Shown one piece after another: positions 45,360 to 63,615 of a DNA stretch of 64,000 nt. The stretch's first letter is position 1. Every line of letters begins with the position of its first letter. A model generated the notes under the pieces. The model was not told the origin of the DNA. It saw only the letters and a list, made by a program, of their open reading frames with translations, and made no database searches. Position numbers and translations under genes: made by a program. This DNA comes from a virus (Duplodnaviria; Caudoviricetes). The stretch covers positions 1 through 64,000 of the IMG/VR virus record IMGVR_UViG_3300031867_000015; one strand, written 5' to 3'.

Positions 45360-45381
45360 TTCTCCTTTAATTAATATTGTT

Positions 45382-47175: not shown

Positions 47176-47196
47176 TATACAATTTCCTCCGTTTAA

Positions 47197-48235: not shown

Positions 48236-48381
48236 ACTTAATCCTCCTTTAAGATATTAGTAAAGTTCTGTTATTCTTATAAACAGTGGAATAAATCCAA
48301 GAAACCACAGTGATTCAATTTTCTTAGGGTTATACATTATGCTATTATATTCCTTAATCCTAACTCTCCATACGAACATAC

Positions 48382-48774: not shown

Positions 48775-48936
48775 TTACTTTTCCTCCTTGTTTCTTTCGA
48801 TTATCCGCTTCATTTCTTCTTCGTTTATCCAATTCAGAAGATAACTCTGAATAAAATATATTTTTTGTTCATCTTTAAACTGTGTATTTAAAATTCCTTT
48901 GATGATTCCTATATTTTTGTTAGCCATAATCTTACC

Positions 48937-49131
48937 TCACTTTGCCATATCATATATTCTCTGCGGAACTTTGTAGATATAACTGCCACACTGTACAAGC
49001 AGAGCATCTTTTCCGTAGTATTTTTCTTTCATTCCTTTGATACTTCCTGACTTATGAAAGTTGGGATAGTTTTCTATATGAAGTCTTTCTCCCCTTGCGA
49101 CTGTTAGATATTTTACTCTTGCCATAATCAT
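48937..49131 (-). CDS. hypothetical protein
   Basis: GSIKGMKEKYYGKDALLVQCGSYIY. Confidence 0.65.
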   Translation of the reverse strand: MIMARVKYLTVARGERLHIENYPNFHKSGSIKGMKEKYYGKDALLVQCGSYIYKVPQRIYDMAK

Positions 49132-49140
49132 TCTACCTCC

Positions 49141-49344
49141 TTACTTTATAACATTCAGATTAAATTGCCTATCGCATACAGTCCAGTCATAAACTCTTGC
49201 ATTTTTCCATTCTTCGTGAAGCCCATCCTCTTGTTTAATCTGATTGGCTGTCATGTCAATTTCTACATTTTCGTTGACTTCATACAGATTAACATTAAAT
49301 TTCATTAGGCTATCAAAATTTTCAAAAAATTCCTTTACTGTCAT
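49141..49344 (-). CDS. hypothetical protein
   Basis: aggagg RBS. Confidence 0.6.
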   Translation of the reverse strand: MTVKEFFENFDSLMKFNVNLYEVNENVEIDMTANQIKQEDGLHEEWKNARVYDWTVCDRQFNLNVIK

Positions 49345-49580
49345 AGTATTTCCTCCTTTTAATTGTTCACCAAAATATCACCGTTTCACCTGTCTTACGT
49401 TCTATATAATCTATTATTTCATCTATAACAGATTGTTTAGCTTCAATGATGGGTCTTGTTACTTCATTGCTATTAATAAGGTCATTACTTAAATCCACAT
49501 GAAATGCATTTAAGTAATCAAGTATGCAGTTTAATTTCTCACGGTCAGTCATAAGCTTCCTCCTTGATAGAATCACTCTT

Positions 49581-49790
49581 TTATTCTTCCGTAAAGCCAT
49601 TTTTTACAAGCTGGTTTATCATATCATCAATATCACTTTGTCTCACAAGTTCATACACTCCTGATACTGTATTAGAAAATGGTGTGACCAACTTATTATA
49701 AGTCTTTTTCTCATAGTCAACTGTCAACCATACGTTTCTGACACAGCCCTCGCATTTCTTCTTTTGAAGATAAACATAACTTAATCTCAT
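49581..49790 (-). CDS. hypothetical protein (paralog of 47197-47427)
   Basis: MRLSYVYLQKK..NVWLTVDY..VYELVRQSDI. Confidence 0.65.
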   Translation of the reverse strand: MRLSYVYLQKKKCEGCVRNVWLTVDYEKKTYNKLVTPFSNTVSGVYELVRQSDIDDMINQLVKNGFTEE

Positions 49791-49821
49791 AATTTTCCCT
49801 CCTGTTAAAATACACTTTTCA

Positions 49822-50139
49822 TTATCTGTTGTAAACGTTATCCCAATATCTCTTATACGTTGGCTCAATTATCTGTCCGTTGCTATTCCTTATTGCTCTG
49901 AGATATTCGATAGCCTTTTCGGTTTTCTCTATTCTCCTATTCAGTTCAGATATTCCGATAAGCTGTGGAGCATATGAGGGCAAGCCCATGAATCCTATTG
50001 ATGACGATGTTGGTTTACCATCCCTTGCTTTTTTATAAAGTTCCAATGCGTTCTCGTTACTTTCGATTGCCCTATCACACATCTCGTTTTGATATTCCGT
50101 ATAGGTATATCCTTTGAATCTATTATTATTCATATACAA
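49822..50139 (-). CDS. hypothetical protein
   Basis: aggagg RBS. Confidence 0.55.
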   Translation of the reverse strand: MYMNNNRFKGYTYTEYQNEMCDRAIESNENALELYKKARDGKPTSSSIGFMGLPSYAPQLIGISELNRRIEKTEKAIEYLRAIRNSNGQIIEPTYKRYWDNVYNR

Positions 50140-50208
50140 TTTCCTCCTTGTATTTTATGCATTTTCTCACCCATGCTATTAAGCACAGGTGAGAATCCGT
50201 ATTGGTTA

Positions 50209-51231
50209 TTAACCTTCCATAACGAACTTGTAAAGTTCATCATTTCTTGTGATTACATTTGATGCTCTCATAGTTCCGTTGGTGCAAGCTTCGTTATAAT
50301 CCGCACTTACTGTAGCACCATCTGTTCCATCAAAGAACTGTGACAGCTTATCTCCGTAGATTGAAACCTTATCCTCATATTCTTCTTCGCTTTCATCCAT
50401 GAACTGCTTTGCTACATACAGAACAGTTATGAGATTTGCCTTTGAAGTGATACGCTTGATAATCTTCTTATCATCTGTAGCCGCTTCGATTGCAAGGTAT
50501 GTGAAGTCAAGAATTGAATTGATTTCATTAACTGTGTTTTCTCCAAATGTGAATGTCTCATATGCCTGACGTACATTCTTTGAAGAAAGTTCACTCTGGT
50601 CATTCAGTAATAAAGCAAGCTTGATAATGATATCTTCATTTGCATATCCCTTGATAGCAGTTGCAGAAAGATTATCCATAAGAAGCTTATGTGAAGCCAT
50701 TCCCTTGATAATATTAAGCTGTTTTGCCTTGATTCTTGCGTTCTCTGTTCCAGTAAGAACCTTGCCGTTGTTAAGTCTGCTCATCATTTCTGCTATTTCT
50801 TCTTCCGTAGCATCTGAGAAGTAGTACATTGTAAATACATAAGAACTTACACTCTCCTGTATATCCTCGTCCAGTTCACTGAATGTTTTACCGTTAGGGT
50901 CATATGAAGTTCCATCTTCATATTCGATAGGTTCAAGACCGCTAAGAGCAAATTCATCATTAAGATACCTTGCTACTGTTGTGAATCTCTGCTTTCCGTC
51001 AATGCAGTCATACACTGAAACTTCCTTGCCCTTGACTGTAATCTTTTCATTGCTCCTGATTGCAAATGTTGCAGGGATAGGATATCCTCTGAACATTGAG
51101 TCGATGAGAAGCGACTGTCTCTTGATATCCCATACGTAGCCACGCTGAATAGGATTGTTGAACTTGATTGTTCCATTCTCGATTGCCTTTGAAATCTGCT
51201 TTGCGCTCCAATTTACATTTGCTTTTAACAT
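50209..51231 (-). CDS. DUF262 (GmrS/ParB-like) domain protein
   Basis: QRGYVW..LIDSM..YPIP, IDGKQRFTT, RLNNG. Confidence 0.85.
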   Translation of the reverse strand: MLKANVNWSAKQISKAIENGTIKFNNPIQRGYVWDIKRQSLLIDSMFRGYPIPATFAIRSNEKITVKGKEVSVYDCIDGKQRFTTVARYLNDEFALSGLEPIEYEDGTSYDPNGKTFSELDEDIQESVSSYVFTMYYFSDATEEEIAEMMSRLNNGKVLTGTENARIKAKQLNIIKGMASHKLLMDNLSATAIKGYANEDIIIKLALLLNDQSELSSKNVRQAYETFTFGENTVNEINSILDFTYLAIEAATDDKKIIKRITSKANLITVLYVAKQFMDESEEEYEDKVSIYGDKLSQFFDGTDGATVSADYNEACTNGTMRASNVITRNDELYKFVMEG

Positions 51232-51298
51232 AATAATTTCCTCCTAAGAATTAACTTTAAATTTTATTTTCGGACTTGCTGTCCTTTGCTATGGTTTT

Positions 51299-51327
51299 AT
51301 TATACTATATTATTTGCTCTTTGTCAA
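51299..51327 (-). promoter_or_regulatory. sigmaA promoter with operator variant
   Basis: TTGACA-17-TATAAT. Confidence 0.8.
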
Positions 51328-51567
51328 GCACATTTTGAAATTTTTATTTTTTAACTTATTCCAAAATGTGCTTGACGTTTTCTTAATAGATTCTTCCATC
51401 CTTTTCGATGGTAAGAAGTCCATCCCTGTACCTTGTTTCCTTGCTTAACTCCTTGATAGCTTCTTTAGCCTTATCAAGAGTATCACATTCTCCAACAAGG
51501 ATTTCTTCGTTTCCTTTTGTAAATACTATGCTGTACTTTGACATTTAATTCCTCCTTTCATGATTCT

Positions 51568-51596
51568 ATTATACCATATACAATTCACTCTGTCAA
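51568..51596 (-). promoter_or_regulatory. sigmaA promoter with operator
   Basis: TTGACA-17-TATAAT containing AGAGTGAATTGTA. Confidence 0.8.
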
Positions 51597-51614
51597 GAGC
51601 AAATTGAAATATTT

Positions 51615-51851
51615 TTATTTTAACTTAATAACCCATCCGATTCCTTCCTCATGAACGCTGAATCCATATTTAACATAGAAGTCTTTTACACGTTCGCTGA
51701 TAGTTCTGGTTTCTCCGTCATTCAGAATCCCTACCATTGCATCCCATGCTTCATGGGCTTCTGATGGTGTCATTTTATAGCGTTTAAGATTCCCATTATA
51801 AAATATATCTTCCAACGCTACCTTTGCTTTTGTGACTTTTCTTGTGTCCAC
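51615..51851 (-). CDS. hypothetical protein
   Basis: GTG start behind ggaggt. Confidence 0.55.
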   Translation of the reverse strand: MDTRKVTKAKVALEDIFYNGNLKRYKMTPSEAHEAWDAMVGILNDGETRTISERVKDFYVKYGFSVHEEGIGWVIKLK

Positions 51852-51864
51852 TGTTTTACCTCCG

Positions 51865-52035
51865 TTATATAATTCCGTTCTCTTTGAACTCTTTGAGAAG
51901 TCCGAATTTCTTTCCCATGCGTTCAAAGTATCTTTGCATTTCTGTAAGTTCTTCATAGCTTAACTGAAACTCTGACATTGTATTCTGCCATTCAATAGCT
52001 TCTTGTCTCAGCTTTTCCTTTAACTCCTTATACAT
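51865..52035 (-). CDS. 56-aa hypothetical protein (below ORF cutoff)
   Basis: MYKELKEKLRQEAIEWQ..FGLLKEFKENGII. Confidence 0.6.
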   Translation of the reverse strand: MYKELKEKLRQEAIEWQNTMSEFQLSYEELTEMQRYFERMGKKFGLLKEFKENGII

Positions 52036-52424
52036 CACTCATACTCCTTTAAGACAGCTTCTTTTGCTGTCTCTGACAGCCGTAGTTCATATGGATATCC
52101 ATATTTATTAGGACAGATATCTCTGCCAAAGGAAACTAATCTCCATGTTCCCTTATGATATCTACATCTTATCCATGAAGAATATGGTGTCCATCTGTAA
52201 CAGTTTGGAAAGTGCTGACGGAAGTCATAAACAAATTCCGTTCCTTCAACAGCTTTCTTGAATCCTCTTGGTGTAATAATATTTAATCGTTTTTCCACAT
52301 CATTACAGATACCTTCTATTTGGTAATAGCTATAGAAGATTCTCTCTGTTGCTCCGCCCTGTATTACATTCAGCGCAGACATAATCTTTTCTGCATTGGA
52401 TTCCTTTATGACGATTTCTTTCAT
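52035..52424 (-). CDS. hypothetical protein
   Basis: aggagg RBS. Confidence 0.6.
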   Translation of the reverse strand: MKEIVIKESNAEKIMSALNVIQGGATERIFYSYYQIEGICNDVEKRLNIITPRGFKKAVEGTEFVYDFRQHFPNCYRWTPYSSWIRCRYHKGTWRLVSFGRDICPNKYGYPYELRLSETAKEAVLKEYE

Positions 52425-52438
52425 GATAATGTTCCTCC

Positions 52439-52969
52439 TTACTTGATTCTGTTAAGTTCTCCACCGCACTTACAGCGGAACGACTGTGGATGTTCTATCA
52501 CTTTACTCATGCGGTATCTTCCGATTTTTGCACCGCATTTCTCACATTGTACAACGTATGTAAATTTCTTTACAACGTCCTGTTCTTTCTCATCTACTCC
52601 CTTGTCGTTATCGTTTCCGCAACGCTTTATATCTATTCCGTAACGGTCATAAACCATTTTAGCATATGTTTTCCACTGTGTACCATGACCGTGACAGTCA
52701 GGACAAGTATGAAGCAATTCATGAATCATTGTATTCATAAGTCCTTCATCCGTAGGTGTATACTTTTCATTAATCAGCTTGTAAGATATGCTGATTTTAA
52801 AATCAGCCCTTTCTCCTGTGCCTATACTCTGTCTCCATGAGGTCTGTCCCCATCTTCTTTCCGCATGAGATACAGAAAGTTCCTTGATGTCTTTACAGTA
52901 TGGGATGTTCAGTTCATCAAGCATCCTCATACACTTTTCCATATAGTTTTTAAGTTTACGCTGTGCCAT
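52439..52969 (-). CDS. SprT-like zinc metalloprotease
   Basis: HELLH, HGTQWK, C-terminal CxxC..CxC. Confidence 0.85.
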   Translation of the reverse strand: MAQRKLKNYMEKCMRMLDELNIPYCKDIKELSVSHAERRWGQTSWRQSIGTGERADFKISISYKLINEKYTPTDEGLMNTMIHELLHTCPDCHGHGTQWKTYAKMVYDRYGIDIKRCGNDNDKGVDEKEQDVVKKFTYVVQCEKCGAKIGRYRMSKVIEHPQSFRCKCGGELNRIK

Positions 52970-52982
52970 AGTTTAATCCTCC

Positions 52983-53498
52983 TTAATCGTAATATCCCCA
53001 TGCTTCACGGTCTGCTATATCTCTTTCCAGTTCTGCTTCTGGTGTATGATGATAAGCAATAGCATCAGGAATTGTCCACTTGTCAAGTGAATATCCGCTT
53101 GCGCCCCCAATGTAGAAATAAAAACCTGTCTCATCCTGTTTGATATCAAAACGATGTAATGAATAAAGGTGTGGAATATCCGCTGTTAAAAGTCCTTTTA
53201 AATTCGCTTTAAGAGAAACTTCCGTAAGCTGTTCGCTTAAAAGTTTCCATGTTTCATCAACCTTATTTTTAATTTCTTTCTTTGGTGCTCCCGAAAAACT
53301 AACCATTGTCAAAGAGTTTCCACACTCAGGGTCATGTACTCTAAAAAGAAATTCCGCTGTATAAGCTGTCTCAGATTCTTCATCAAAGACCTCAACTGTA
53401 CCCTGTATATATCCCTTTAAATATCCGCTTGTATAATATACTGCGCTGTGAGTCCATGATTTATTTGCAAGGTCATTTAAGATTAAGTTGATGTTCAT
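52983..53498 (-). CDS. hypothetical protein
   Basis: aggagg RBS. Confidence 0.6.
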   Translation of the reverse strand: MNINLILNDLANKSWTHSAVYYTSGYLKGYIQGTVEVFDEESETAYTAEFLFRVHDPECGNSLTMVSFSGAPKKEIKNKVDETWKLLSEQLTEVSLKANLKGLLTADIPHLYSLHRFDIKQDETGFYFYIGGASGYSLDKWTIPDAIAYHHTPEAELERDIADREAWGYYD

Positions 53499-53556
53499 AT
53501 ATGTTTCCTCCTTATGGAGAGTGAACTGTTATACAATTCACTCTCCGAATATATTT

Positions 53557-53961
53557 TTACTTGATTCCTAATTCGCTTCGTACATCCAATTCAGAAACCC
53601 TTCGTAATTCCATTGTCTGTAAATCGTTGTATGATTTGATTTCCAAACGATACATTTTGATGTAGTTATTTGTTCCATAGGTAGATGAGTTTTCAAGTCT
53701 TGATTTTACGAAAGAGTTTCCATCAACTCCGCTGTCTCTGATTCCGATGTAAAGCACATCATTTTCAAAGTTCTGAACGACTTTCTCTATCGCTGTCAGA
53801 GTATAATATAAATCGCTTGCGTAGTATTCGCAGGTCATTCCTGCCGCCTGTATAAGTTCCGTAAAGATATCCGAATAATTAATATTTGTTGTGGGTTCTC
53901 CATTGTATGAACTTGTGTAGACCTGTCCTTCGCAGGTGATTTTCTGTCCGTGATGTAACAT
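53557..53961 (-). CDS. hypothetical protein
   Basis: CEYYASDL..GIRDSGVDG. Confidence 0.6.
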   Translation of the reverse strand: MLHHGQKITCEGQVYTSSYNGEPTTNINYSDIFTELIQAAGMTCEYYASDLYYTLTAIEKVVQNFENDVLYIGIRDSGVDGNSFVKSRLENSSTYGTNNYIKMYRLEIKSYNDLQTMELRRVSELDVRSELGIK

Positions 53962-53973
53962 ATTATTTCCTCC

Positions 53974-54153
53974 TTAAAAATCAAAGTCCTCATAATCTTC
54001 CAGTGCAGATATAAGTCCGTCAAAATCCTCTGATGTTCCTAACATACTTGCAAGCATTGCAACTGTTCCGTAGTCAATTCCGTAATCATCCGCAAGACTT
54101 TCAAGATATTCCTTGCGATTTTCATATCCGTTTTCCTTATAAATGTTTGACAT
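53974..54153 (-). CDS. 59-aa acidic hypothetical protein (below ORF cutoff)
   Basis: MSNIYKENGYENRKEYLESLADDYG..LGTSEDFDGLISALED. Confidence 0.65.
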   Translation of the reverse strand: MSNIYKENGYENRKEYLESLADDYGIDYGTVAMLASMLGTSEDFDGLISALEDYEDFDF

Positions 54154-54213
54154 ATTGATTCCTCCTTATGCTTATGTATCATAGAGTGAATTGTATCTCT
54201 CTGCTATGGTTTT

Positions 54214-54242
54214 ATTATACCATATACAATTCACTCTGTCAA
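54214..54242 (-). promoter_or_regulatory. sigmaA promoter with inverted operator pair
   Basis: TTGACA-17-TATAAT; inverted operator copy at 54180-54195. Confidence 0.8.
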
Positions 54243-54266
54243 GTGTTTTTTTATTATTTTTTTATT

Positions 54267-54545
54267 TTAACTTTCTTCGTATGTTCCGATAAGATATTTA
54301 TGACCGCAGATTGATATTGTAATTTCTCCATTAGTAGTTGATACACGTTTATTTTTCTTCATCATGTTGATTCTTGCTTTCGTTTCTGAATCGTATTTCC
54401 AGAACATAACTTCTGCTGTTCTTCCGTGTACATCCGTTACATAAAATCCATCAACGGTTCTTTTCCAACCGTCATTATCTTCAATTACACGCTGTTTATC
54501 AAGCCATTTGTCTGACCAGTCAGGTGTTGCTTTTACTCTAAGCAT
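54267..54545 (-). CDS. hypothetical protein
   Basis: aggagg RBS. Confidence 0.55.
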   Translation of the reverse strand: MLRVKATPDWSDKWLDKQRVIEDNDGWKRTVDGFYVTDVHGRTAEVMFWKYDSETKARINMMKKNKRVSTTNGEITISICGHKYLIGTYEES

Positions 54546-54557
54546 TATTATCCCTCC

Positions 54558-55424
54558 TTAATAATCGTGTTCCATGCACCATTTGTTGAAGTCTCTTTTA
54601 GCTGATTTGAACGCTTCTTTCATAGTATCGTTCATTTCTCCACATCCAGTTGAGTAAGCCGCTTCTGCAAATCTTCCACCATACATACATTCATAGTTGA
54701 AGAACTCATGGTAGAAAGCTTTTTTCCAGAACTCAAAATTGTTTGCAAGTTCTTCCTTTGCCTTTTCAATACTTTCCGCAAGATTGTTTATTTTCTTACA
54801 AAATTCCTTAGACTTATAGTAAGCGTGAGTTATCGCACTTACATACAGTCCTTTTGTTTCTGCTCTATACCATTCTTCCATGCCCTCATGATTAAAGATA
54901 TGGAAACGTGATACATGGTTCTCTCTGTCTCCGTAGTAGTTGACAAGATAGTATTCACGGTTCTTTAAATCCGCATAAGATTTGATTGGAGTTGAAAGTT
55001 CTTCATCCGTGTACAGCTTTTCCGTAAGCTGTTTTACGTAAATTTCCTTTAACTCTGCATGAGTTTTTCCAGAACGATGAAGTTCATAGTCACCTGCGTA
55101 TCTTATCTGATGACTGTTAAAGAAAACAACCACAGAATATCCAAAGCCGTTTCCAAAGTCAATAAAATAGCAGTCATGCTCCTTTATTTTTTCATAGTCA
55201 TCACTCATAACAATAGCGATTTCCTCTGTAATAGATTCGATATCATCAATTGTCCATTTATCCACGTTCTGAGCCACAGCAAGAGCCGCTGTTCCACTAA
55301 TAATCTTATCAGGTTTTGTGATTGTCCACATCTCGTCTGATAATACAGGAGCATTGTTCTCTCCGTAATATTCATTGAGTGCCTGTCTGATGTTTTTGTT
55401 TCTGTACATTTCCTTTACGTTCAT
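54558..55424 (-). CDS. hypothetical protein
   Basis: 288 aa ORF, aggagg RBS. Confidence 0.7.
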   Translation of the reverse strand: MNVKEMYRNKNIRQALNEYYGENNAPVLSDEMWTITKPDKIISGTAALAVAQNVDKWTIDDIESITEEIAIVMSDDYEKIKEHDCYFIDFGNGFGYSVVVFFNSHQIRYAGDYELHRSGKTHAELKEIYVKQLTEKLYTDEELSTPIKSYADLKNREYYLVNYYGDRENHVSRFHIFNHEGMEEWYRAETKGLYVSAITHAYYKSKEFCKKINNLAESIEKAKEELANNFEFWKKAFYHEFFNYECMYGGRFAEAAYSTGCGEMNDTMKEAFKSAKRDFNKWCMEHDY

Positions 55425-55695
55425 AGTAATTTCCTCCTTTGATTTAGGTTTAAAACCCTTATATCAGGGCATCGGAATTTCCAATGCCCTATTATAAAAG
55501 TTCTCATACCTCTCTTACTACATTTTCTTTGACGAACTCCATATACCATTGTACGGTAAACCCTTTTTCTTTGGCATACTTTTCAAGGTATTCCAGTGTT
55601 GCATCATAAAGGGCTTTTGGAATATCTACCCATTCGTCATATTTTCCGTGACCGTTAACATATTTTAAATTTCTCTGATACATATAAGTCCCTCC

Positions 55696-56139
55696 TTATA
55701 CTTCGTGAATGTGCCATCCGTCTTTGTCAAGCAGGATATTATCTGCACATCTTTCCGCATTGTCTCCGCTGTTGTAAATGTCCATAATATATTTATCATC
55801 AATCACCTTTGTTAACTTCTGTAAATCCGCAAAGGATTTTCTTGTCTTGCTGTATGGAATTGTTCTAAACAATCCCAGTCCAGAAGATGAAGCCATACCA
55901 TTTCCACAAGAACTGAATTTACTGATATGCAGATTGATTTCCAGTCCTACCTGTCTAAAGTTCTGATACTTTTCCGAGAACCAAAGCTGTGCTTCGATAT
56001 ACTCAGTATCATTCAACTTGATGACCTTAACAGGCTGTTTCTCTCCGCTATGCATATAGAAATGTCTCAGGTCAAACTTCCAATTGTTTGACATTTTTTC
56101 GTTGTACTTCTGTACCTGTGCTGTTGTAATATTTGCCAT
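55696..56139 (-). CDS. hypothetical protein
   Basis: aggagg RBS. Confidence 0.6.
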   Translation of the reverse strand: MANITTAQVQKYNEKMSNNWKFDLRHFYMHSGEKQPVKVIKLNDTEYIEAQLWFSEKYQNFRQVGLEINLHISKFSSCGNGMASSSGLGLFRTIPYSKTRKSFADLQKLTKVIDDKYIMDIYNSGDNAERCADNILLDKDGWHIHEV

Positions 56140-56212
56140 AATATTTTCCTCCTAAATTGTATATATTTTACTCTATGCCATGCGAATATAAAATCCGCAT
56201 GGCTATTGTTTG

Positions 56213-56683
56213 TCAGCAAGTGAGTGTTGCTACCTTTATGGTGTCCACGAACTGTGAACCGTATATATCACGGATTCTGTTCATGGAATATCTTGAAGCC
56301 CTTCCTCCCTTCGTTTCATCATCCGCTAAGTAATAGCGTTTCTGCTTTGTGCTATATTGGAATCCCATTGACTTGATTTTTACAAGATACTTTCCTACGT
56401 TGTCAAGCCATATCCAACCGCCTATTATCTCGATACGGATATCCGAAAAGTGTATCAGCTTTTCAATTATCCCTCTAAACTTCTCAGGGACTTCTTTTGA
56501 AGCTTTTTCCTTTTCCTTTTTGTTTCCGTGAGTAGCGAAATACTTAATCATTTCATCGTATTCGCTGTTGATTTTCTGCATTGTCTCCACATCACCGCCC
56601 ATGTCAGGATGATATTTCCTGCACAGCTTGTGATATAATTTTTTCAGTTCATCCAGTGTCTTGACTTCTTTGAAAAAATTCAT
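56213..56683 (-). CDS. J-domain (DnaJ-like) protein
   Basis: ELKKLYHKLCRKYHPDMGGD..MQKINSEY; EIIGGWIWL. Confidence 0.85.
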   Translation of the reverse strand: MNFFKEVKTLDELKKLYHKLCRKYHPDMGGDVETMQKINSEYDEMIKYFATHGNKKEKEKASKEVPEKFRGIIEKLIHFSDIRIEIIGGWIWLDNVGKYLVKIKSMGFQYSTKQKRYYLADDETKGGRASRYSMNRIRDIYGSQFVDTIKVATLTC

Positions 56684-56736
56684 ATATGTTCCTCCGTTTC
56701 CAAAGAGTAAATTGTATATCTCTTTGCTATGGTTTA

Positions 56737-56765
56737 AGTATATCATACAATTCACTCTTTGTCAA
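56737..56765 (-). promoter_or_regulatory. sigmaA promoter with inverted operator pair
   Basis: TTGACA-17-TATACT; inverted operator copy at 56701-56716. Confidence 0.75.
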
Positions 56766-56795
56766 GTAGTTTTTATATATTTTTTTGTTTTAACT

Positions 56796-57026
56796 TTATC
56801 CCTCCCATTCTCCGTAAAGTCCCTGTGGCTTTTCAAAAAAGCTGTCGTTTTCTGCATCCACAAACACATCACAGGGCGCACGATGAAGCAGTTTTGATAT
56901 CTCAATAATAGCTTCATCCCTTGGTTTATCCGTTGTATATGTTCCTACTTGTGAAGCATAAGTCCACGAACCATCAGGAATTTTTGCGATAACTCCAAAA
57001 GTATAGGAAGTATAGGCTGTTTTCAT
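56796..57026 (-). CDS. hypothetical protein
   Basis: ORF in operon. Confidence 0.55.
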   Translation of the reverse strand: MKTAYTSYTFGVIAKIPDGSWTYASQVGTYTTDKPRDEAIIEISKLLHRAPCDVFVDAENDSFFEKPQGLYGEWEG

Positions 57027-57220
57027 TCTTCATCATCCTCCATATAATCATAGTCAATATCAAGTTTATCCATAAGTTCTTCCAATGCCATGACCTGTGC
57101 AGAACACCACTGATACTGCTCTCTTTTCCGAACGCTTCTTCTGTCCTCATCGTATGCCTTTTCAGCTTCTTCCTCTGCCTTTAAACATTCCGCATAATAT
57201 TCAAGTATTTTCTGTTCCAT
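57023..57220 (-). CDS. hypothetical protein
   Basis: aggagg RBS. Confidence 0.55.
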   Translation of the reverse strand: MEQKILEYYAECLKAEEEAEKAYDEDRRSVRKREQYQWCSAQVMALEELMDKLDIDYDYMEDDEE

Positions 57221-57224
57221 GATA

Positions 57225-57449
57225 TTATCCTCCTATCTTTTCCGATATGATTTCCAGTACCCTTTTCTGTGTAGGAATATCCCACATACCGCCTGTACTG
57301 AATCCATCAATGGTCATATTCTGAATAGACTTTCCATAAAGTTTGATACCTATGATATGACCATCAACTTCAAAAGTTCCGTTTAACCATTCGTTTTTGA
57401 AGTTGCGCATATGGTTTTTAACCATTGCAAGAAATTCCGCTTTATTCAT
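57225..57449 (-). CDS. hypothetical protein
   Basis: aggagg RBS. Confidence 0.6.
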   Translation of the reverse strand: MNKAEFLAMVKNHMRNFKNEWLNGTFEVDGHIIGIKLYGKSIQNMTIDGFSTGGMWDIPTQKRVLEIISEKIGG

Positions 57450-57502
57450 AATAATCCTCCTTATGTATCATAGAGCAAATTGTATATCTTTGCTGTGATT
57501 AT

Positions 57503-57531
57503 ATTATATCATATACAATTTGCTCTGTCAA
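57503..57531 (-). promoter_or_regulatory. sigmaA promoter with inverted operator pair
   Basis: TTGACA-17-TATAAT; inverted operator copy at 57469-57484. Confidence 0.8.
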
Positions 57532-57558
57532 TAGCTTTTTAAAAAGTTTTTATTTTAA

Positions 57559-58047
57559 TTAATCCGTAACTCTTACAGTTTCCTCAAACGGATTAATCTC
57601 AATGTCAATTGAACCTGTTGTATCATCCGTAAACTCATAATAGATATGCGCTGTTGTAATTTCCGATATAGTCAGTTCATACTGTCTACACGGCTCTCCA
57701 TTTACAAAGTCTATCTCATAATAGAGCATAAGATTATCCACAAAATCTTCACGCTCCATATATTCAGTTGTGTAATTTTCCCACGCTATATCAACAATAG
57801 TTTCCTCATCAAGCGTGATTTCGTTTCCATACGTGCAGTTATCTTCGTACCGTTTCCGTACTCCTACGGCATCCGCTATGGTTAATTCTCCGTCACCGTT
57901 GAAGTCAAGGTGTTCATGGTATTCCTCATTGATTACCTTATCAATTATGATATCTGATATCTCAGGGGATATCCATGAATGATAGTTTTCCGCAGGTTGT
58001 GGTGTACCTGCAAGAAGTGAAAAGCACATAAATAAAGTTTTTAACAT
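57559..58047 (-). CDS. secreted protein with single dockerin/EF-hand-like repeat
   Basis: hydrophobic N-terminus; LDFNGDGELTIADAV. Confidence 0.7.
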   Translation of the reverse strand: MLKTLFMCFSLLAGTPQPAENYHSWISPEISDIIIDKVINEEYHEHLDFNGDGELTIADAVGVRKRYEDNCTYGNEITLDEETIVDIAWENYTTEYMEREDFVDNLMLYYEIDFVNGEPCRQYELTISEITTAHIYYEFTDDTTGSIDIEINPFEETVRVTD

Positions 58048-58288
58048 GATTATTCCTCCGTATAGTCTGTATCATCATATTCGCATGGTGCTTTATCGTC
58101 AGGGCATCGGTTCTCCCAGTGACAACAAGCACGTTCTTCGTCATCTTCTTTCCAGAAGTAGCAACAGTAACGTATGGTTCACCTATAGTCAATGATGTTT
58201 CCAGACCTATTGCATTAGCCTTCTTTGCGAACCTGTTAAACTGCTTTTGCAGTTCTTCCAAACGGTTCATAAAAATCGTCATTTCCAT
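57962..58288 (-). pseudogene. probable out-of-frame fusion of two genes
   Basis: 3' part reads YCCYFWKEDDEERACCHW..APCEYDDTDYTEE* in another frame, ending at 58050. Confidence 0.45.
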
Positions 58289-58367
58289 AACAGTACCTCC
58301 GTGATATGTATTAAGTGCAATGGCACTTTATGAAGCCTATCGAAAAATCCGATAGGCTTGAAAAATG

Positions 58368-58568
58368 TCAATACACAAAGTCAGTGTAAACAGTTTTGTT
58401 TCCGTCAAAGTATCGTGAATAGCTGATATCGTCACATCTTCCGCAGTCGTATTTCTTTTCAGTTCTGTCATATTCTCCCTTGATGTAAACTTGACTATCT
58501 GTAACGTGCTTTTCTCCATGTGGTTTAAGGGCGAATAAATCGCCCTTTTTGAGTTCTTTTAATTTCAT
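58368..58568 (-). CDS. hypothetical protein
   Basis: MKLKELKKGDLF..VYIKGEYDR..VYTDF. Confidence 0.65.
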   Translation of the reverse strand: MKLKELKKGDLFALKPHGEKHVTDSQVYIKGEYDRTEKKYDCGRCDDISYSRYFDGNKTVYTDFVY

Positions 58569-58569
58569 A

Positions 58570-59151
58570 TTATCCCTCCATTGGCATTGGTGTTAATCCG
58601 TAGTCAGCACATTTGCTGACTACTTCATTGTATGTAAGTTCCTTGACAATACGCATATTACCTGCAATTATCCAAGTTCCAAACATATTTGGATTGGTCT
58701 TGTAACGGTAATATCCGTGAAGGTCTACCATTTCAAGCTGTGCATTTTTAGGAATGATTTTTCCCTGTTTGTTTCTGCCTTTTTCGTTTGCCATAGGCTG
58801 ACAGTCAACAGTTGTTTCATATTCCACTAAGCACCAAACATGGTCTTTTTTCTGCACTTTGTTAAAACGTCTGCCTGTATTCTTTTCCAGTTCTGCACCA
58901 TTATCGCAATAGTGTTTTCCGTATATGTGCGTAACATACGGACATTCCTCGTTTAAGTGCCAACCGCCACGGTAAGCAAGTTCTCCAAGCTTGCTTTTAA
59001 CCTTGCCAGACTTTGTGCGTTCTCCGCACTTTGCGAACATCCATGTATTCATGGGAAGGATTTCACTTGCATTGACATACAAGGGATGAAGATTTCCCTT
59101 GCTGTCTTTTCTGAAAAGTTTATATCCGTGAGCTGTTTTGATAATACTCAT
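58570..59151 (-). CDS. hypothetical protein
   Basis: GYKLFR..LHPLYV..LAYRGGWH..YRYKTNP..WIIAG. Confidence 0.7.
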   Translation of the reverse strand: MSIIKTAHGYKLFRKDSKGNLHPLYVNASEILPMNTWMFAKCGERTKSGKVKSKLGELAYRGGWHLNEECPYVTHIYGKHYCDNGAELEKNTGRRFNKVQKKDHVWCLVEYETTVDCQPMANEKGRNKQGKIIPKNAQLEMVDLHGYYRYKTNPNMFGTWIIAGNMRIVKELTYNEVVSKCADYGLTPMPMEG

Positions 59152-59474
59152 GATTATTTCCTCCTATTATGTATTTAGTAGTATTTCCAGTAGTCAGGGC
59201 TTTAGACCTTTTGACTGGTAACAAGCTACATTAACGGTGCATCCGCACCGCCTATCTGTATTCGTATCTGTATTCGGTGGACGTTCCGCAAGTTGTGGGA
59301 TATTCCCTCCCTTGCTTTCCGTGATGTTGGTATGATATTCAGTTGACGGAATTTCCTCCGCTGTCTGCATTGGAATTTCCGTCAGAATCTTTGCGTATGG
59401 TGGTAGTTCCGCAAGGTAATCAAAATACGTTGTCCCTTGCCAAAGGTAAAAACGTCTATGGTATTTTCTTGTCA

Positions 59475-59747
59475 TTATTCCTCATCCTCCTTAATGAATA
59501 AGTGTACACAGTCAACCATGAAGTCAAAGGCAAAACTGCTGAAAGTTCCACCGTATTCAATATACAGTGAGTTGTCAGAGTGTTCCCAGATATCACGGCA
59601 TATTGCTATGATATCCGCATCACTCATGCACTGGTCTGCACGTTTCAGCATAGCGGAATAATCCGCATTATTGCCCTTTGTGTACATTCTGTTCTTAATG
59701 CAGTAGTTGCGAACCTCGTCCGCAAACATTGTTTTGTCAATTGTCAT
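59475..59747 (-). CDS. hypothetical protein
   Basis: VRNYCIKNRMYTKGNNADY. Confidence 0.6.
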   Translation of the reverse strand: MTIDKTMFADEVRNYCIKNRMYTKGNNADYSAMLKRADQCMSDADIIAICRDIWEHSDNSLYIEYGGTFSSFAFDFMVDCVHLFIKEDEE

Positions 59748-59841
59748 AATTCATTCCTCCATATGAAAATTAGCATCCGTCTACTTTGGATATGACGGAG
59801 TAGCTTTAAAGGACTACGTTTCCGCAGTCCTCCCATCAGCG

Positions 59842-60024
59842 TTATGCTTTTTCGTCTATTGAAAAGTAAGTGTAGAACAGTTCTACAGCGGATTCATCGT
59901 CAATGTTAGTTCCAGATTCCAGAAGTCTATCTTCCAGATAGTCCTGACATTCGTTAAATGTTCCAGAGAACACAACGTCAGCAAAATTGCCGATTTGTTC
60001 CCATACCTGATATGTTTTCTCCAT
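59842..60024 (-). CDS. hypothetical protein
   Basis: ggaggt RBS. Confidence 0.55.
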   Translation of the reverse strand: MEKTYQVWEQIGNFADVVFSGTFNECQDYLEDRLLESGTNIDDESAVELFYTYFSIDEKA

Positions 60025-60064
60025 GATATACCTCCATTTTTATTATACAATTCATTCTTTGTTA

Positions 60065-60382
60065 TTAAACGAATGAAAAGTCGCTTTTTATAACCTCGAA
60101 TCCGATTGACTCTTGGTTGAAGGCTTGCTTTAAGGCGAGAGCCAGTCTTTTCATGCTCTCAATGTCAATGCCTGACACTTCGATTCTGAGTGTAGGCTCT
60201 TGTACAATCTCACCATTTTCGTGAGTGTACACTCCGCAGGCTTCGGTAATTGTACCAAAGCCGATGATCTCCGTGAGAAGATTTGAAGCCACTTTGTAAG
60301 CGTCAAGAGTTGACACTTCCTGAGCCTTTGAATCCTTGTCGAATAAGCCACAGAATAAAATTACCTTAGTTGCATTTGTCAT
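60065..60382 (-). CDS. hypothetical protein
   Basis: GLFDKDSKAQ..GVYTHENG..FNQESI. Confidence 0.65.
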   Translation of the reverse strand: MTNATKVILFCGLFDKDSKAQEVSTLDAYKVASNLLTEIIGFGTITEACGVYTHENGEIVQEPTLRIEVSGIDIESMKRLALALKQAFNQESIGFEVIKSDFSFV

Positions 60383-60459
60383 AATATACCTCCGTTTAAA
60401 GTCCATGAGACTATGTAATTGGTGCCAATCATAGCGGATTTACGCTAATCTTGACATAA

Positions 60460-61245
60460 ATAAAGCGGTAAATCGTAAGAAATACCGCTTGACAAATCAG
60501 ATAAATTATGATAAAATCAGTATGTAGGATTAGTCACTCAGATTAGCCAATTGTAGCTTATTGCCAATTATGGCAACTTCGGTTACTCACAGGTACAATA
60601 CTCTCATATTGCCGAGGGCTTCACAGCCTATCGTTTTACCCACCATCTGCATACAAGCTATAAAATACAGATGCATTTATTTTGACTATTTTTCACGCTA
60701 AGAGTGTATTCTTGCAAACGCACCCAACCCTAATCAGTACACGATTTAAGACGGTTTTAAGACTTTCAGCTTTTTATCTCACAAGTCAAAATAGAGAACT
60801 ACCAATATTTTGACCACGTTCCCCTGACAGATGTATGCATCCTAAGCCGTTTTACTTCCCATTTGTCACTTTAGTAAAACTACCCCCGATACACCTAACA
60901 CTACTTACAGATGTAAAGTCTGTTTTTGTGCGTTTTCAGTCAATTCGTGCTGTTTATTACAGCTTTACTTGCCTACTTTTCGCATCCGTGATACTTTAGT
61001 CAAACTACTATTTACCGCTTTACGTTGTGCTTTTTGGTTTAGCTGTAAAAAGATACAGCACCCCCCACGGCTCACTACAACACTTTTATCGTCAAATACA
61101 TGGAGTTAGAGCGTTCTCACTTGCATTGACTATCAGATTTTAGGTTACTGCAAACCACCTTTTTGCTATAGTATACCCCATAGACTTATAGGAAGGCTAT
61201 TCCTACGATGAACATTCAGCAAGTCTTTTTCAAGTCCCTTGCTAT
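60460..61245 (-). ncRNA. candidate large (~790 nt) structured non-coding RNA
   Basis: promoter at 61280-61252, terminator-like hairpin at 60463-60490, no ORF >=60 aa or clear RBS, many helices. Confidence 0.45.
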
Positions 61246-61247
61246 GG

Positions 61248-61474
61248 TTTTATTCTATCACATATTCACGAATTTGTCAACTGTCAAATTGCACAAACTT
61301 TAAACCGTGTTTTTGTGATATCTGATAAACTACATTGAAAAGCACTTTTCAGCTTTTTCAAGCTGTTTTTGTGTTTTGTTCATTTCGTTTACCGTGATTT
61401 TATTCTATCACATATTCACGAATTTGTCAACTGTCAAATTGCACAAACTTTAAACCGTGTTTTTGTGATATCTG
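61248..61474. repeat. 77-bp direct repeat x2 (period 150), each with a - strand sigmaA promoter
   Basis: 61248-61324 identical to 61398-61474; TTGACA-17-TAGAAT in each. Confidence 0.9.
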
Positions 61475-63615
61475 TCAATCGGAGCAAATCAAACATTTTT
61501 CAACTTTTTCAAGCTGTTTTGTGTTGTTGTCTGTTGACAGTTATTATTATAGCCGATATTGCACACGATGTCAATACTTTTTTTGACGTTCTACCTTTTG
61601 CACATATAATTATTGTTTTGCGATATCTTGTGTTGTATAAAATGCACTAAAAAAGGAAGAAAAATATACTCGATGTAGAAGTTCGGGTATATCTGATATT
61701 GATTTTTATACTGTCTGTATACTCTCTTTATATTCTAATAGGTATTATAATATTAATACCTATTAAATACAAAGAGAGCAATACGTTCATTTGATTTGCA
61801 AATAAGTTCTTATGAACCTATTACTATCAGAGCTGGAAACTGTATATACTGTATATGTACAATATATACAGTTTTGTAGTCCCGATAGATTCAACAGATA
61901 GTATAAATTATGTATCATTGGTTTACTATTTGTATATTTTGCGACCGTGTAAACCTTTACTTTTTGTATAGTCTATTTATGGCTATTTATAGCGGTTTAT
62001 TCACTGTTGAATAAAAATATACGATACTTTTTGAATATTTTTCAAATTGAATTTGACTGAATGTATAATAATTATTGTTTTTCAATATCAGTTTATTGAA
62101 TAACAATATTATTGTTAACATAGTAAACTAAATAGATGATATCAGGCTGTTTTGTAAAAAGATAAAATAAAATAGTCTTTTTGTGTTGTCTCAAAACAGT
62201 GTTTAAAATGCTTTTTGACGGCTTTTTATTATCGGAATGATATTATATTACCCATATGTTACAAAGGGCATTAGAAACGATTTTGCTGTTTTGTAGCGAT
62301 ATACGGTAGTTTGAAGGCTGTTGAAAACTTTGCTTTAATTGTTGAAAGTTGTATACATTGCACAAATGTATTCATTAAGTAGTGAATATTCATGAAGATA
62401 GATTCGGAGTTTATGCCTATATTTCGGATAGAATCGGGATTTTATGAATATGAATATTCAGTATTTTGTGTATATTTTAGTGTGTTTTGGTGTTATATTA
62501 CTTATTGTTTATTTGTATGGTATTTATACAGATTGTTATTGAAGTGAATGTGTTATAGGTATAGACTATTAATTTTATTTGTGTTATTGGTTTTAGTTAT
62601 ATATTATTGGTGCATTGGTTATGTGTTATGTTTTGATATCGGTATGATATCAAAATGATATCAAAAAATAAAAGTGTTGCAATTGCAACAAAACTACCGA
62701 CAAAATCACTGTAAACTAAAATTGCTTTACATATGTATATGGATATTATATAACAGCATTAAAAAAATATATATGAATGATTCTTCAATTGTTAAAGATT
62801 TATCGTATACTATTATAATATAAAAGGGAAATGTGTTAGGCGGTACTAACAGTAGGAAATGTGCGAACCTACTGTTAGCAAGCCCTAACTTGGCGATATA
62901 TAGGGGATTGGTTTACATCGTAAAATCTTTTAACAACTGTTTTACACGGTAAAGGTATTCCATTCACAGCCTTCAAAAAAAATTACATACACTTCATATG
63001 CACCTTATATACACTTCACATACATTCCAAAATGCAATTCAAAATCATATAACTTCACACATACTCTTATTGCTTCTCCCCCTCACCTCTCTCCCTCAAA
63101 ACTATCCCTTATCAGATATCGGCTTAATACATTCAATATAATATCTAATATTAAATTTCAAATAAACATCTCTTAATTCCTAAAAACTTAATCTAATCCA
63201 ATCAAGAACGTATCTATCCTATTATTTTATTATCTATATAATTAATCACTTTATAATACTCCTATTCGCTCTACAATAAACTACAATCAATTCTAACAAC
63301 ATAAGTAGTGTAACTATATTCTAATTAATACAAAGCCTTACAGCGCATTTAAAAGCGTATTATAATACTATAAAATATTTCCCATTCAATAAATAAAAAA
63401 CAAGTCAGATAGTTTTACCTTTAAGCGGATGCGAAGCAGACGATTAAAGGTAAATCTGATTATGCGAGTATGAGAACGAGCGGAGCGAATGTTCTCATAC
63501 GGCAGAATCAGACAATGCCATAGGCTACAATTAAGATAGTATTAATTAATAATCCAGTGTAAAAAATTGGGGGTATGTTTAATAGTAGCTATGCAACAAT
63601 TTTTGTAACGGTCTA

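What the first reader, a model, noticed from the sequence alone, without database searches (positions are those of the whole stretch)
51600..60420. Strong strand-polarised TCCG (coding-strand CGGA) enrichment confined to the early region
Manual count: about 85-90 TCCG versus about 12 CGGA on the + strand in these 8.8 kb (about 10 per kb). There are about 18 in 44.8-51.6 kb and only about 2 in 19.8-24.8 kb. Most are TCCGY. They occur across unrelated genes and spacers, and density rises toward the non-coding divergence region, so protein composition is an unlikely cause. Inference: a polar DNA signal written over the coding sequence. Candidates are a Chi-like site limiting AddAB degradation (B. 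subtilis Chi is AGCGG), a loading site for a phage DNA-binding or entry protein, or a modification target.
Basis: partly seen in the sequence, partly recalled or inferred. Interest (0 to 1): 0.78.

Follow-up and report, generated by a model that had tools for sequence, protein, structure and literature searches.

The report
Sense-strand CGGA signal in phage early genes
A 115-kb rumen phage and its relatives have written the four-letter word CGGA about ten times per kilobase into the sense strand of their immediate-early genes by choosing synonymous codons, which points to a selected nucleic-acid signal whose reader is still unknown.

Summary
In 51600-60420 there are 88 TCCG against 11 CGGA on the + strand. 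All genes there lie on the minus strand, so the word is CGGA in the sense strand. The rest of the 115-kb genome has about 1.3 per kb, and there is no mirror image on the other arm.

Codon usage, amino-acid composition and dinucleotide content do not explain it. Ala, Thr and Ser codons end in CG about half the time when the next codon starts with GA, and 4-12% otherwise. This context effect is missing from the phage's other genes and from candidate Ruminococcaceae hosts.

Four relatives show the same enrichment even though most of their early genes are unrelated. Individual sites turn over while density is kept. The 825-nt leader upstream of the first gene has the same G+C and CpG content but only one CGGA.

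I read it as a selected, density-type signal of the immediate-early operons. It is most likely read in the mRNA, with logic like T4 RegB and GGAG (confidence about 0.3). A Chi-like AddAB barrier is a weaker rival. No reader was identified.

The scan holds a second note on this same stretch. Its notes on CGGA in other genomes concern four-base glycine codons, which do not apply here.

The parts
51600..60420 (-). CGGA-rich immediate-early block: about 22-27 small, mostly orphan genes. 88 sense-strand CGGA against 11 antisense, about 10 per kb.
   Evidence: Pfam finds only weak SprT-like, DnaJ-like and S-AdoMet-lyase-like matches.
44800..51599 (-). Shoulder of the signal. Density falls from about 6 per kb (50-52 kb) to about 3 per kb. 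No significant context effect remains (z = 1.2).
50209..51231 (-). GmrSD_N/DUF262 (ParB-like) gene at the distal edge of the block. It is the only early gene shared by all relatives that carry the enrichment, so it is a candidate reader. This is a lead only.
   Evidence: Pfam 3.1e-18. Present in G000, G002 and G005, and not found in G003 or G004. Orthologues anchor L129 and L130. The structure model was poor, pLDDT 52.
60065..60406 (-). First gene of the early operon, with a weak S-adenosylmethionine-lyase-like match. Its ribosome-binding site is CGGAGG, and the enrichment starts here.
60421..61245 (-). Non-coding leader between the triple promoter and the first gene. It has the same G+C (0.383) and CpG density as the block but only 1 CGGA and 6 GGA.
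   Evidence: Poisson P(<=1) = 1.5e-4 at the block's density, computed over 60421-61600.
61252..61574 (-). Three tandem consensus sigma-A-type promoters pointing into the early block.
   Evidence: 12/12, 11/12 and 11/12 matches.
51299..57531 (-). Five further consensus promoters inside the block, at 57531, 56765, 54242, 51596 and 51327, each with an A-rich upstream element.
   Evidence: They resemble strong promoters of Ruminococcaceae genomes.

Best explanation
CGGA is a positively selected, density-type signal written into the sense strand of the immediate-early operons of this phage clade. The core is GGA, with a strong preference for C in front. CCGGA is excluded because the phage avoids CCGG. 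The signal is made by context-dependent synonymous codon choice, NCG before GAN and NNC before GGA. It also occurs in ribosome-binding sites. Shown: the signal is real, frame-independent, region-specific and clade-conserved, it is maintained by turnover of individual sites, and it is absent from the non-coding leader. Inferred: it is read in the early mRNA by a factor with a short recognition word, most likely a sequence-specific endoribonuclease or RNA-binding protein of the host or the phage. That factor would give early messages a fate different from middle and late messages, for example rapid decay once early promoters are shut off. The logic resembles T4 RegB cutting GGAG in early mRNAs. 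The structured leader RNA is spared because it lacks the word.
For: 1. Selection at nucleotide level. GCG is used for Ala 54% of the time before D/E and 12% otherwise (Fisher p = 2e-6). ACG is 56% against 5% (p = 6e-9). TCG is 38% against 4% (p = 7e-4). NNC before GGA is 51% against 28% (p = 8e-5). None of this appears in the rest of the phage, which if anything avoids G|GA.
2. Two codon phases are used equally, 39 and 39. 46% and 32% of all dipeptides that can carry the word do carry it, against 5-6% elsewhere. Such dipeptides are themselves about 1.2-fold in excess in early proteins.
3. The signal extends beyond ORFs. C precedes GGAGG in 6 of 28 cases in the block against 2 of 48 elsewhere (p = 0.046), and spacers hold 7 sites in about 1.3 kb.
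4. The leader lies downstream of the same promoters and has the same G+C and CpG density, yet has 1 site where 11 would be expected. This argues against a regional mutational bias and fits a word tied to the coding messages.
5. It is conserved in G002, G005, L129 and L130 (z = 8.9, 3.6, 3.1 and 3.8), although only about 6 of about 25 early genes are shared between G000 and G005.
6. Spacing is somewhat more even than random (CV 0.78, no gap under 10 nt where 8 are expected), as expected if coverage matters.
7. A near-threshold Twister-P5 self-cleaving ribozyme lies inside the block, suggesting that early messages may be processed.
8. Precedent from the literature: T4 RegB inactivates early mRNAs at the 4-nt word GGAG (PMC1702504 and PMC3014915, listed).
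Against: No reader was found. RegB and RelE/ParE profiles find nothing in G000, G002 or G005. The phage's orphan MazF is absent from G005, and the genome avoids UACAU instead (81 against 130 expected, z = -5.5). CGGA sites show no preference for unpaired RNA (0.443 against 0.432 expected from base composition). Middle and late genes are only weakly depleted (107 against 129, z = -2.1), so discrimination by a nuclease would be quantitative only. Every gene in the block has the same orientation, so mRNA and the non-template DNA strand cannot be told apart. Individual sites are not more conserved than neighbouring synonymous sites (third-position divergence 6.0% against 7.7%, G000 against G002; 6 of 25 positions shared with G005).
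Confidence: 0.3

Rival explanations
1. A Chi-like barrier at DNA level. RCGGA (or its complement) is the recognition word of the host's AddAB-type helicase-nuclease. A dense one-orientation cluster would attenuate degradation of phage DNA, and with it CRISPR spacer or pAgo guide capture. It would work like the terminal Chi clusters of lambdoid phages.
For: Precedent: phages LLS and MD8 carry 20:3 and 32:0 oriented Chi sites clustered near one genome end (PMC12315714). Spacer-acquisition hotspots run from free DNA ends to the nearest chi site (PMC8860600). Here the polarity is 8:1 in a roughly 9-kb block next to the large non-coding zone. From my own knowledge, the Bacillus subtilis Chi is only 5 nt (AGCGG); AGCGG occurs 13 times in the block against 6.6 expected. 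Total site number is similar in G000 (about 90) and G005 (about 75) although the blocks differ in length.
Against: In 309 kb of the best host candidate, the leading-strand skew of CGGA is ordinary for a G-rich word: rank 12 of 240, with ACGGA 126 and GCGGA 34 of 990. The 3.6-kb non-coding zone nearest the presumed end has no enrichment. If the early end enters first, the strand ending 3' at that end carries TCCG, not the G-rich form (inference from the geometry quoted). There is no cluster on the other arm. The phage encodes RecD-like and RecJ-like enzymes, unlike the Chi-rich lambdoid phages that lack recombination modules.
Confidence: 0.15
2. Translational adaptation. Early genes are tuned to the host's tRNA pool and codon-pair preferences because they are translated before the phage's own tRNAs accumulate. 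On this view CGGA is a side effect.
For: Early genes shift toward C-ending codons, CAG and CTG, and away from CAA and TTG, which the phage tRNAs Gln-UUG and Leu-CAA serve. Candidate hosts also prefer NNC before GGA, 0.43-0.63 against about 0.3 in three of the four genomes sampled. 19 of 22 early genes have a full GGAGG ribosome-binding site.
Against: The NCG|GA effect (odds ratios 8-23) is absent or weak in the four host-family genomes sampled, 0.21 against 0.20, 0.27 against 0.26 and 0.14 against 0.08. GGA makes up 65% of Gly codons here against 10-30% in those hosts. The host sense/antisense ratio for the word is only about 1.4:1. The word is also enriched in ribosome-binding sites and spacers. 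Highly expressed late genes do the opposite.
Confidence: 0.1
3. Non-adaptive origin. The enrichment comes from a regional, strand-specific mutational bias, or from the compositional signature of a shared pool of exchangeable early-gene cassettes.
For: Individual sites are not conserved beyond neutral expectation, and gains balance losses, 6 against 7 between G000 and G002. Cassettes are swapped between G000 and G002, with no alignment over 54281-55703, 59371-60037 and 60444-62078.
Against: The leader has equal G+C and CpG content but lacks the word. Nearly half of all possible sites are occupied, and permissive dipeptides are in excess. Relatives of the 193-aa early protein in the low-G+C phages G003 and G004 carry few sites, 2 of 16 and 1 of 7 possible. 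The trait is kept in five phages with largely different early genes.
Confidence: 0.12
4. A DNA-level site array for a phage protein or a strand-specific DNA modification. An example is the conserved ParB-like DUF262 protein, whose relatives in SspE-type systems sense a short one-strand phosphorothioate word.
For: The DUF262 gene is the only early gene present in every relative with the enrichment, and it was not found in G003 or G004, which lack the context-dependent signal. That DUF262 domains can read short asymmetric modified words is from my own knowledge, not tested here. The phage also encodes a PAPS-reductase-like (DndC-like fold) protein.
Against: The co-occurrence is confounded by phylogeny (one clade). 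There is no DNA-binding or nuclease domain call beyond GmrSD_N, no PDB relative, and an uninformative model. There are no sites in the non-coding zone.
Confidence: 0.12
5. A sponge for a GGA-binding regulator such as CsrA. Abundant early messages would titrate the host protein.
For: The core of the signal is GGA, at 291 against 47 on the two strands, 33 per kb. G|GA is also favoured after A/G-ending codons, 0.50 against 0.32, p = 0.002. In G005 the top context-dependent word is GGAA, 245 against 173 expected, z = 10.5.
Against: There is no preference for unpaired or loop positions. CsrA was found in only 2 of 4 host-family genomes, and not in the best host candidate or in the phage. The non-coding leader, the natural place for a sponge, has only 6 GGA.
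Confidence: 0.06

Closest known systems
Terminally clustered, oriented Chi sites in lambdoid phages (LLS, MD8; PMC12315714)
   Same: A short word written over coding sequence, with a 7-8:1 or stronger strand polarity, concentrated in one part of the genome next to a landmark. Density rather than position is maintained.
   Different: Chi there is the host's known 8-mer at about 0.5 per kb, and its orientation fits a mapped end. Here the word is 4-5 nt at 10 per kb, is not shown to be a host Chi, shows no special host skew, and is missing from the non-coding zone. The genome ends are unknown.
T4 RegB endoribonuclease and its GGAG targets in early mRNAs (PMC1702504, PMC3014915)
   Same: A four-letter, GGA-containing word in the sense strand of early messages, and a way to give early messages a separate fate.
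   Different: RegB sites act mainly in ribosome-binding sites. Here most sites lie inside ORFs. No RegB homologue was found, and no cleavage has been shown.
Polar chromosome words (KOPS/FtsK, SRS/SpoIIIE; PMC3384302)
   Same: Strand-polar words superimposed on genes and read by a translocating machine.
   Different: Those are 7-8-mers skewed along whole replichores. This is a 4-mer confined to about 9-15 kb of one arm.
Early/late codon-usage differences in phages (for example lambda, PMC5737525)
   Same: Early genes differ in synonymous usage from late genes, and part of the shift here is toward host-like codons.
   Different: The main effect here is a tetranucleotide spanning codon boundaries in two phases, plus ribosome-binding sites. 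It is not explained by codon frequencies.

Membership tests
Chi / AddAB-RecBCD regulatory sequence | Over-represented in the host genome and skewed to the leading strand regardless of gene direction | tested here: inconclusive
   In host candidate G001 (309 kb, strands inferred from gene majority and GC skew), CGGA is 1409:857 in leading-strand genes and 196:164 in lagging-strand genes. It ranks 12 of 240, like other G-rich 4-mers. ACGGA ranks 126 of 990. Host identity is uncertain.
Chi / AddAB-RecBCD regulatory sequence | Oriented so that a nuclease entering at the exposed DNA end meets the word from its 3' side | not testable with these tools
   Genome ends are unknown: all runs are held as contigs only and the read-laying run failed. 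If the early end enters first, the G-rich form is in the inactive orientation (inference).
Chi / AddAB-RecBCD regulatory sequence | Recognised by the host helicase-nuclease (attenuated degradation, RecA loading) | not testable with these tools
   Needs biochemistry.
RegB-type early-mRNA inactivation | Phage encodes a RegB (or RelE/YoeB-fold) sequence-specific endoribonuclease | tested here: not met
   PF10715 gives only an 11.9-bit chance-level match inside the non-coding zone. PF05016 gives none in G000, G002 or G005.
RegB-type early-mRNA inactivation | Target word concentrated in early messages and scarce in late ones | tested here: met
   10.3 against 1.26 per kb of sense strand. Late genes are only mildly depleted against their own null (z = -2.1).
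CsrA/Rsm sponge RNA | GGA words presented in hairpin loops or unpaired stretches | tested here: not met
   Mean unpaired probability of CGGA is 0.443 against 0.432 expected from its bases.
CsrA/Rsm sponge RNA | Host encodes CsrA | tested here: inconclusive
   PF02599 is found in G376 and G078 but not in G001, G270 or the phage. G001 is an incomplete metagenome-assembled genome.
Codon-usage / host-adaptation bias | Enrichment disappears when synonymous codons are shuffled with the region's own usage | tested here: not met
   81 observed against 43.4 +/- 5.3.
MazF (mRNA interferase) target enrichment | Cleavage word of the phage's MazF equals the enriched word, and the toxin is present wherever the word is enriched | tested here: not met
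   The MazF gene at 41677-42021 has no homologue in G005. The genome avoids UACAU, the word of EndoA-type MazF (z = -5.5).

The most novel reading that the evidence does not exclude
The phage clade marks its immediate-early messages with a frame-independent four-letter barcode, CGGA, at about one per 100 nt. An as yet unknown host or phage factor would read it to separate the fate of early from later messages. That would be a RegB-like temporal control in phages of Gram-positive anaerobes, without any RegB homologue, and written mostly inside coding sequence.
Probability: 0.3. Interest if true: 0.8.

Novelty: new variant of a known kind. Interest (0 to 1): 0.62.

Why it matters
Short strand-polar words superimposed on genes, such as Chi, KOPS and RegB sites, have each led to a machine that reads them. 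Here almost half of all codon pairs that can spell the word do so, in five phages whose early genes are largely unrelated. That implies strong, continuing selection by a reader nobody has described.

If it acts on DNA, it could reveal the unknown Chi-type word of rumen Ruminococcus, or a new entry-protection device.

It also offers a practical sequence mark for finding the immediate-early region in uncultured phage genomes of this group.

Tried and rejected
1. Protein composition and plain codon usage: rejected by synonymous and codon-order shuffles.
2. Dinucleotide content: rejected.
3. Host-like codon-pair usage: explains at most the NNC|GGA half. The NCG|GA half is absent from four Ruminococcaceae genomes, including ribosomal-protein/tuf loci.
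4. Restriction-site avoidance: the genome strongly avoids CCGG, GGCC, CGCG, GATC and CTAG. This explains why C never precedes CGGA, but it cannot produce an enrichment.
5. The phage MazF as reader: rejected.
6. RNA loop context and CsrA: not supported.
7. Four-base CGGA glycine decoding, a lead from earlier notes of this scan: not relevant here. In-frame CGG before A occurs only 3 times in the block, and the phage has no tRNA-Gly.
8. CRISPR spacer matches to name the host: a 20-kb query against 401 Ruminococcaceae genomes gave only short promoter-like matches of about 80% identity and no spacer-like hits.
9. Phage database: no similar DNA among 50,697 phage records.
11. Structure of the DUF262 protein: the model was too poor to search, pLDDT 52, and there is no PDB relative by sequence.
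12. Rfam: no family matches the leader.
13. Literature searches for a CGGA or early-region tetranucleotide signal in phages found nothing relevant.

Full report
**What the window is.** The window is bases 1-64000 of a 115,128-bp virus record that CheckV rates as complete. Sequencing runs that hold it are mostly bovine gut or rumen metagenomes. Genes run on the minus strand from about 60.4 kb down to 2.5 kb, and on the plus strand from about 64 kb onward. The minus arm carries replication genes: a DNA polymerase, a RecJ-like enzyme, a RecD/Dda-like helicase, a DnaB-like helicase and NrdD. The plus arm carries a terminase-like gene. Between the arms lies a 3.6-kb non-coding zone. Three tandem consensus sigma-A-type promoters at 61574, 61430 and 61280 point into the minus arm. 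Five more consensus promoters lie inside 51.3-57.5 kb, and they resemble strong promoters of Ruminococcaceae genomes. The genes in 51.6-60.4 kb are small and mostly orphans. Pfam gives only weak SprT-like, DnaJ-like and S-AdoMet-lyase-like matches, the last in the first gene. Calling this block 'immediate-early' is an inference from that layout.

**The observation.** In 51600-60420 the + strand has 88 TCCG and 11 CGGA. Because the genes are on the minus strand, the word is CGGA in the sense strand. The rest of the genome has about 1.3 per kb of sense strand, and there is no mirror-image block on the other arm. The density profile is a plateau of 8-13 per kb from 53 to 60.4 kb with a shoulder down to 44.8 kb, and it ends sharply at the first gene. 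The base before CGGA is A in 48 cases, G in 33, T in 14 and C in 0; the base after is rarely C. The missing C follows from a genome-wide avoidance of CCGG, 5 found against 106 expected. GGCC (0), CGCG (1), GATC (14 against 371) and CTAG (0 in ORFs) are avoided too.

**More than chance and more than codon usage.**
- Dinucleotide-preserving shuffles of the region give 27.0 +/- 4.5 against 88 observed.
- Synonymous-codon shuffles with the region's own codon usage give 43.4 +/- 5.3 against 81 in ORFs (z = 7).
- Shuffling codon order gives 32.7 +/- 4.9.
- CGGA is the top 4-mer by both the shuffle z-score and the early/rest ratio of 7.9-fold.
- The word sits equally in two codon phases, NCG|GAN (39) and NNC|GGA (39). 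It is rare in frame as CGG|A (3), where it would need the rare Arg codon.

The decisive result is context-dependent codon choice.

| Codon choice | In the motif context | Otherwise | Fisher p |
|---|---|---|---|
| GCG for Ala, before D/E | 54% | 12% | 2e-6 |
| ACG for Thr, before D/E | 56% | 5% | 6e-9 |
| TCG for Ser, before D/E | 38% | 4% | 7e-4 |
| C-ending codon, before GGA | 51% | 28% | 8e-5 |

NCG is not raised before other G-starting codons. The phage's other genes show no such effect and rather avoid G|GA. After A/G-ending codon families, G|GA is also favoured in the block, but only about 2-fold (0.50 against 0.32, p = 0.002). So the core is GGA, with C in front strongly preferred.

Of all dipeptides that could spell the word, 46% (phase 1) and 32% (phase 2) do so, against 5-6% elsewhere. 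Such dipeptides are about 1.2-fold in excess in early proteins. The block's extra CpG and much of its extra G+C are simply these added words: CGGA makes up 33% of CpGs in the block against 7% elsewhere.

**Not confined to ORFs, but absent from the leader.** Spacers inside the block hold 7 sites in about 1.3 kb. Five are CGGAGG ribosome-binding sites and two lie at the stem-loop junction of hairpins. C precedes GGAGG in 6 of 28 cases in the block against 2 of 48 elsewhere (p = 0.046). In contrast, the 825-nt leader between the triple promoter and the first gene has the same G+C (0.383) and CpG density as the block, but 1 CGGA and only 6 GGA. The rest of the non-coding zone has 5 CGGA and 6 TCCG. 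At the block's density, 11 sites are expected in the 1.18-kb stretch 60421-61600 that contains the leader; P(<=1) = 1.5e-4. This argues against a regional mutational bias. It also argues against a DNA signal that should be densest next to the non-coding landmark.

**Relatives.**

| Relative | Relation to this phage | Early-region CGGA signal |
|---|---|---|
| G002 (111 kb) | near-identical; 98% identity in the 193-aa early protein | 83 CGGA in 8 kb, z = 8.9 |
| G005 (113 kb) | DNA polymerase 80% identical | 72 CGGA against 9 TCCG in 15 kb, z = 3.6; ACG\|GA 35% against 11% |
| L129 | anchored on the shared DUF262 gene | 5.4 per kb, z = 3.1; [AST]CG\|GA 31% against 10% |
| L130 | anchored on the shared DUF262 gene | 6.6 per kb, z = 3.8; [AST]CG\|GA 36% against 10% |
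| G003, G004 | more distant | no context effect in G003 (z = 1.9; 2.9 per kb against 1.8 elsewhere); no regional peak in G004 |

G005 shares only about 6 of about 25 early genes with this phage. L129 and L130 start abruptly after their own non-coding zones. In G005 the top context-dependent word is GGAA, 245 against 173 expected.

Between this phage and G002, 63 of 70 aligned sites are kept, 7 are lost and 6 gained. Third-position divergence inside the word (6.0%) is not clearly below that outside it (7.7%). Between orthologues in this phage and G005, only 6 of 25 site positions are shared, and many differences are synonymous gains in one lineage. Cassettes that differ between the two closest phages are CGGA-rich in both. 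Selection therefore acts on density, not on particular sites.

**Host-related tests.** A phage dockerin protein matches dockerins of an uncultured Ruminococcus genome (G001) at 45-52% identity. In G001 and three other genomes of its family, most sampled loci carry 4-6 CGGA per kb of sense strand and 3-5.5 TCCG. GGA is only 10-30% of Gly codons. NCG|GA shows no or weak context effect. NNC|GGA is preferred in three of the four genomes (0.43-0.63 against about 0.3). So host mimicry could account for part of one phase only. The general early-gene shift to C-ending codons, CAG and CTG, and away from codons served by the phage's own tRNAs (Leu-UAA, Leu-CAA, Lys-UUU, Gln-UUG, Glu-UUC), is ordinary. 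In 309 kb of G001, with strands inferred, CGGA leans to the leading strand no more than other G-rich 4-mers (rank 12 of 240). ACGGA ranks 126 and GCGGA 34 of 990.

**Tests of specific readers.**
- RNA accessibility: CGGA is no more unpaired than its base composition predicts, 0.443 against 0.432.
- CsrA: found in two of four host-family genomes, but not in G001 or the phage.
- MazF: the phage's orphan gene has no homologue in G005, and the genome avoids UACAU, the EndoA-type word (81 against 130, z = -5.5). It is therefore not the CGGA reader.
- RegB and RelE/ParE profiles find nothing.
- DUF262/GmrSD_N gene: it is the only early gene common to all phages with the enrichment and was not found in G003 or G004. 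This is one clade, the model was poor and no solved relative exists.
- Spacing: somewhat even, CV 0.78 with no gaps under 10 nt. Sites are spread uniformly along genes.

**Weighing the readings.** I hold with about 0.8 confidence that the word is under selection as a nucleic-acid signal. The grounds are the saturation of possible sites, its frame independence, its presence in ribosome-binding sites, its conservation across unrelated genes, and the clean leader.

Which molecule is read is open, because all genes in the block share one orientation. I favour the mRNA, at about 0.3 for the specific mechanism, for three reasons:
- The signal tracks the coding messages and not the adjacent leader or the non-coding DNA.
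- A near-threshold Twister-P5 ribozyme (37.2 bits against a 37.6-bit cut-off) inside the block would fit processing of early messages.
- T4 offers a working precedent of a four-letter GGA-containing word, GGAG, that marks early messages for RegB (PMC1702504, PMC3014915).

The Chi-like rival has a good precedent in phages (PMC12315714) and a plausible benefit (PMC8860600). But it lacks host support, lacks sites in the zone nearest the presumed end, and has unfavourable geometry if the early end enters first. I give it 0.15. Translational adaptation, a non-adaptive origin, a DNA site or modification array, and a GGA-protein sponge are each at about 0.06-0.12.

**Novelty.** I found no description of such a signal and no similar phage DNA in the reference collection. 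It belongs with known polar words written over genes but differs in length, density, confinement to the early operons, and lack of a known reader. The scan's other notes on CGGA concern four-base glycine decoding in other genomes. That does not apply here, because in-frame CGG-A is nearly absent and the phage has no tRNA-Gly.

Noticed in passing
window 59195-59260 (-): Candidate type-P5 twister self-cleaving ribozyme inside the early operon. It overlaps the 3' end of ORF 59194-59475, just upstream of the next gene. It scores 37.2 bits against a gathering score of 37.6, and the conserved CAGA, UAAUG, GC, GGUC and AAGCCC positions match.
   Followed up: partly
whole genome (window and L054-L056): Extreme avoidance of short palindromes: CCGG 5 (106 expected), GGCC 0, CGCG 1, GATC 14 (371 expected), CTAG 0 in ORFs, and TCGA 141 (371 expected). 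This suggests heavy pressure from Type II restriction systems. The distant relative G003 does not avoid CCGG.
   Followed up: partly
window 41677-42021 (-) and genome-wide: UACAU, the cleavage word of EndoA-type MazF toxins, is depleted in middle and late genes (81 against 130 expected, z = -5.5). The phage carries an orphan MazF gene, which is present in G002 and has no homologue in G005.
   Followed up: partly
window 39596-41366 (-) and L054:15398-15716 (+): The phage tRNA set is Leu-UAA, Leu-CAA, Lys-UUU, Gln-UUG, Glu-UUC and Met. Lys, Gln and Glu are the tRNAs typically attacked by anticodon nucleases, so the set may be counter-defence as well as codon supply.
   Followed up: no
window 56165-56200 and 58330-58360 (-): Two similar intergenic hairpins whose stems end in CG and whose loops begin GAUUUU, each containing a CGGA at the stem-loop junction. 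Neither is followed by a T run.
   Followed up: no
window 54281-55703, 59371-60037, 60444-62078: These segments have no alignable counterpart in the otherwise 92-99% identical phage G002. This is cassette replacement inside the early block and of the leader / non-coding zone.
   Followed up: partly
window 60421-61245 (-): 825-nt G-rich leader with no long ORF and no Rfam match. A consensus-like promoter at 60489-60517 and terminator-like hairpins on the + strand suggest that the opposite strand may also be transcribed.
   Followed up: partly
G005 (L061-L066) 77.3-92.7 kb: In this relative the strongest context-dependent word of the early region is GGAA (245 against 173 expected, z = 10.5) rather than CGGA. 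The preferred flank of the GGA core therefore differs between lineages.
   Followed up: partly
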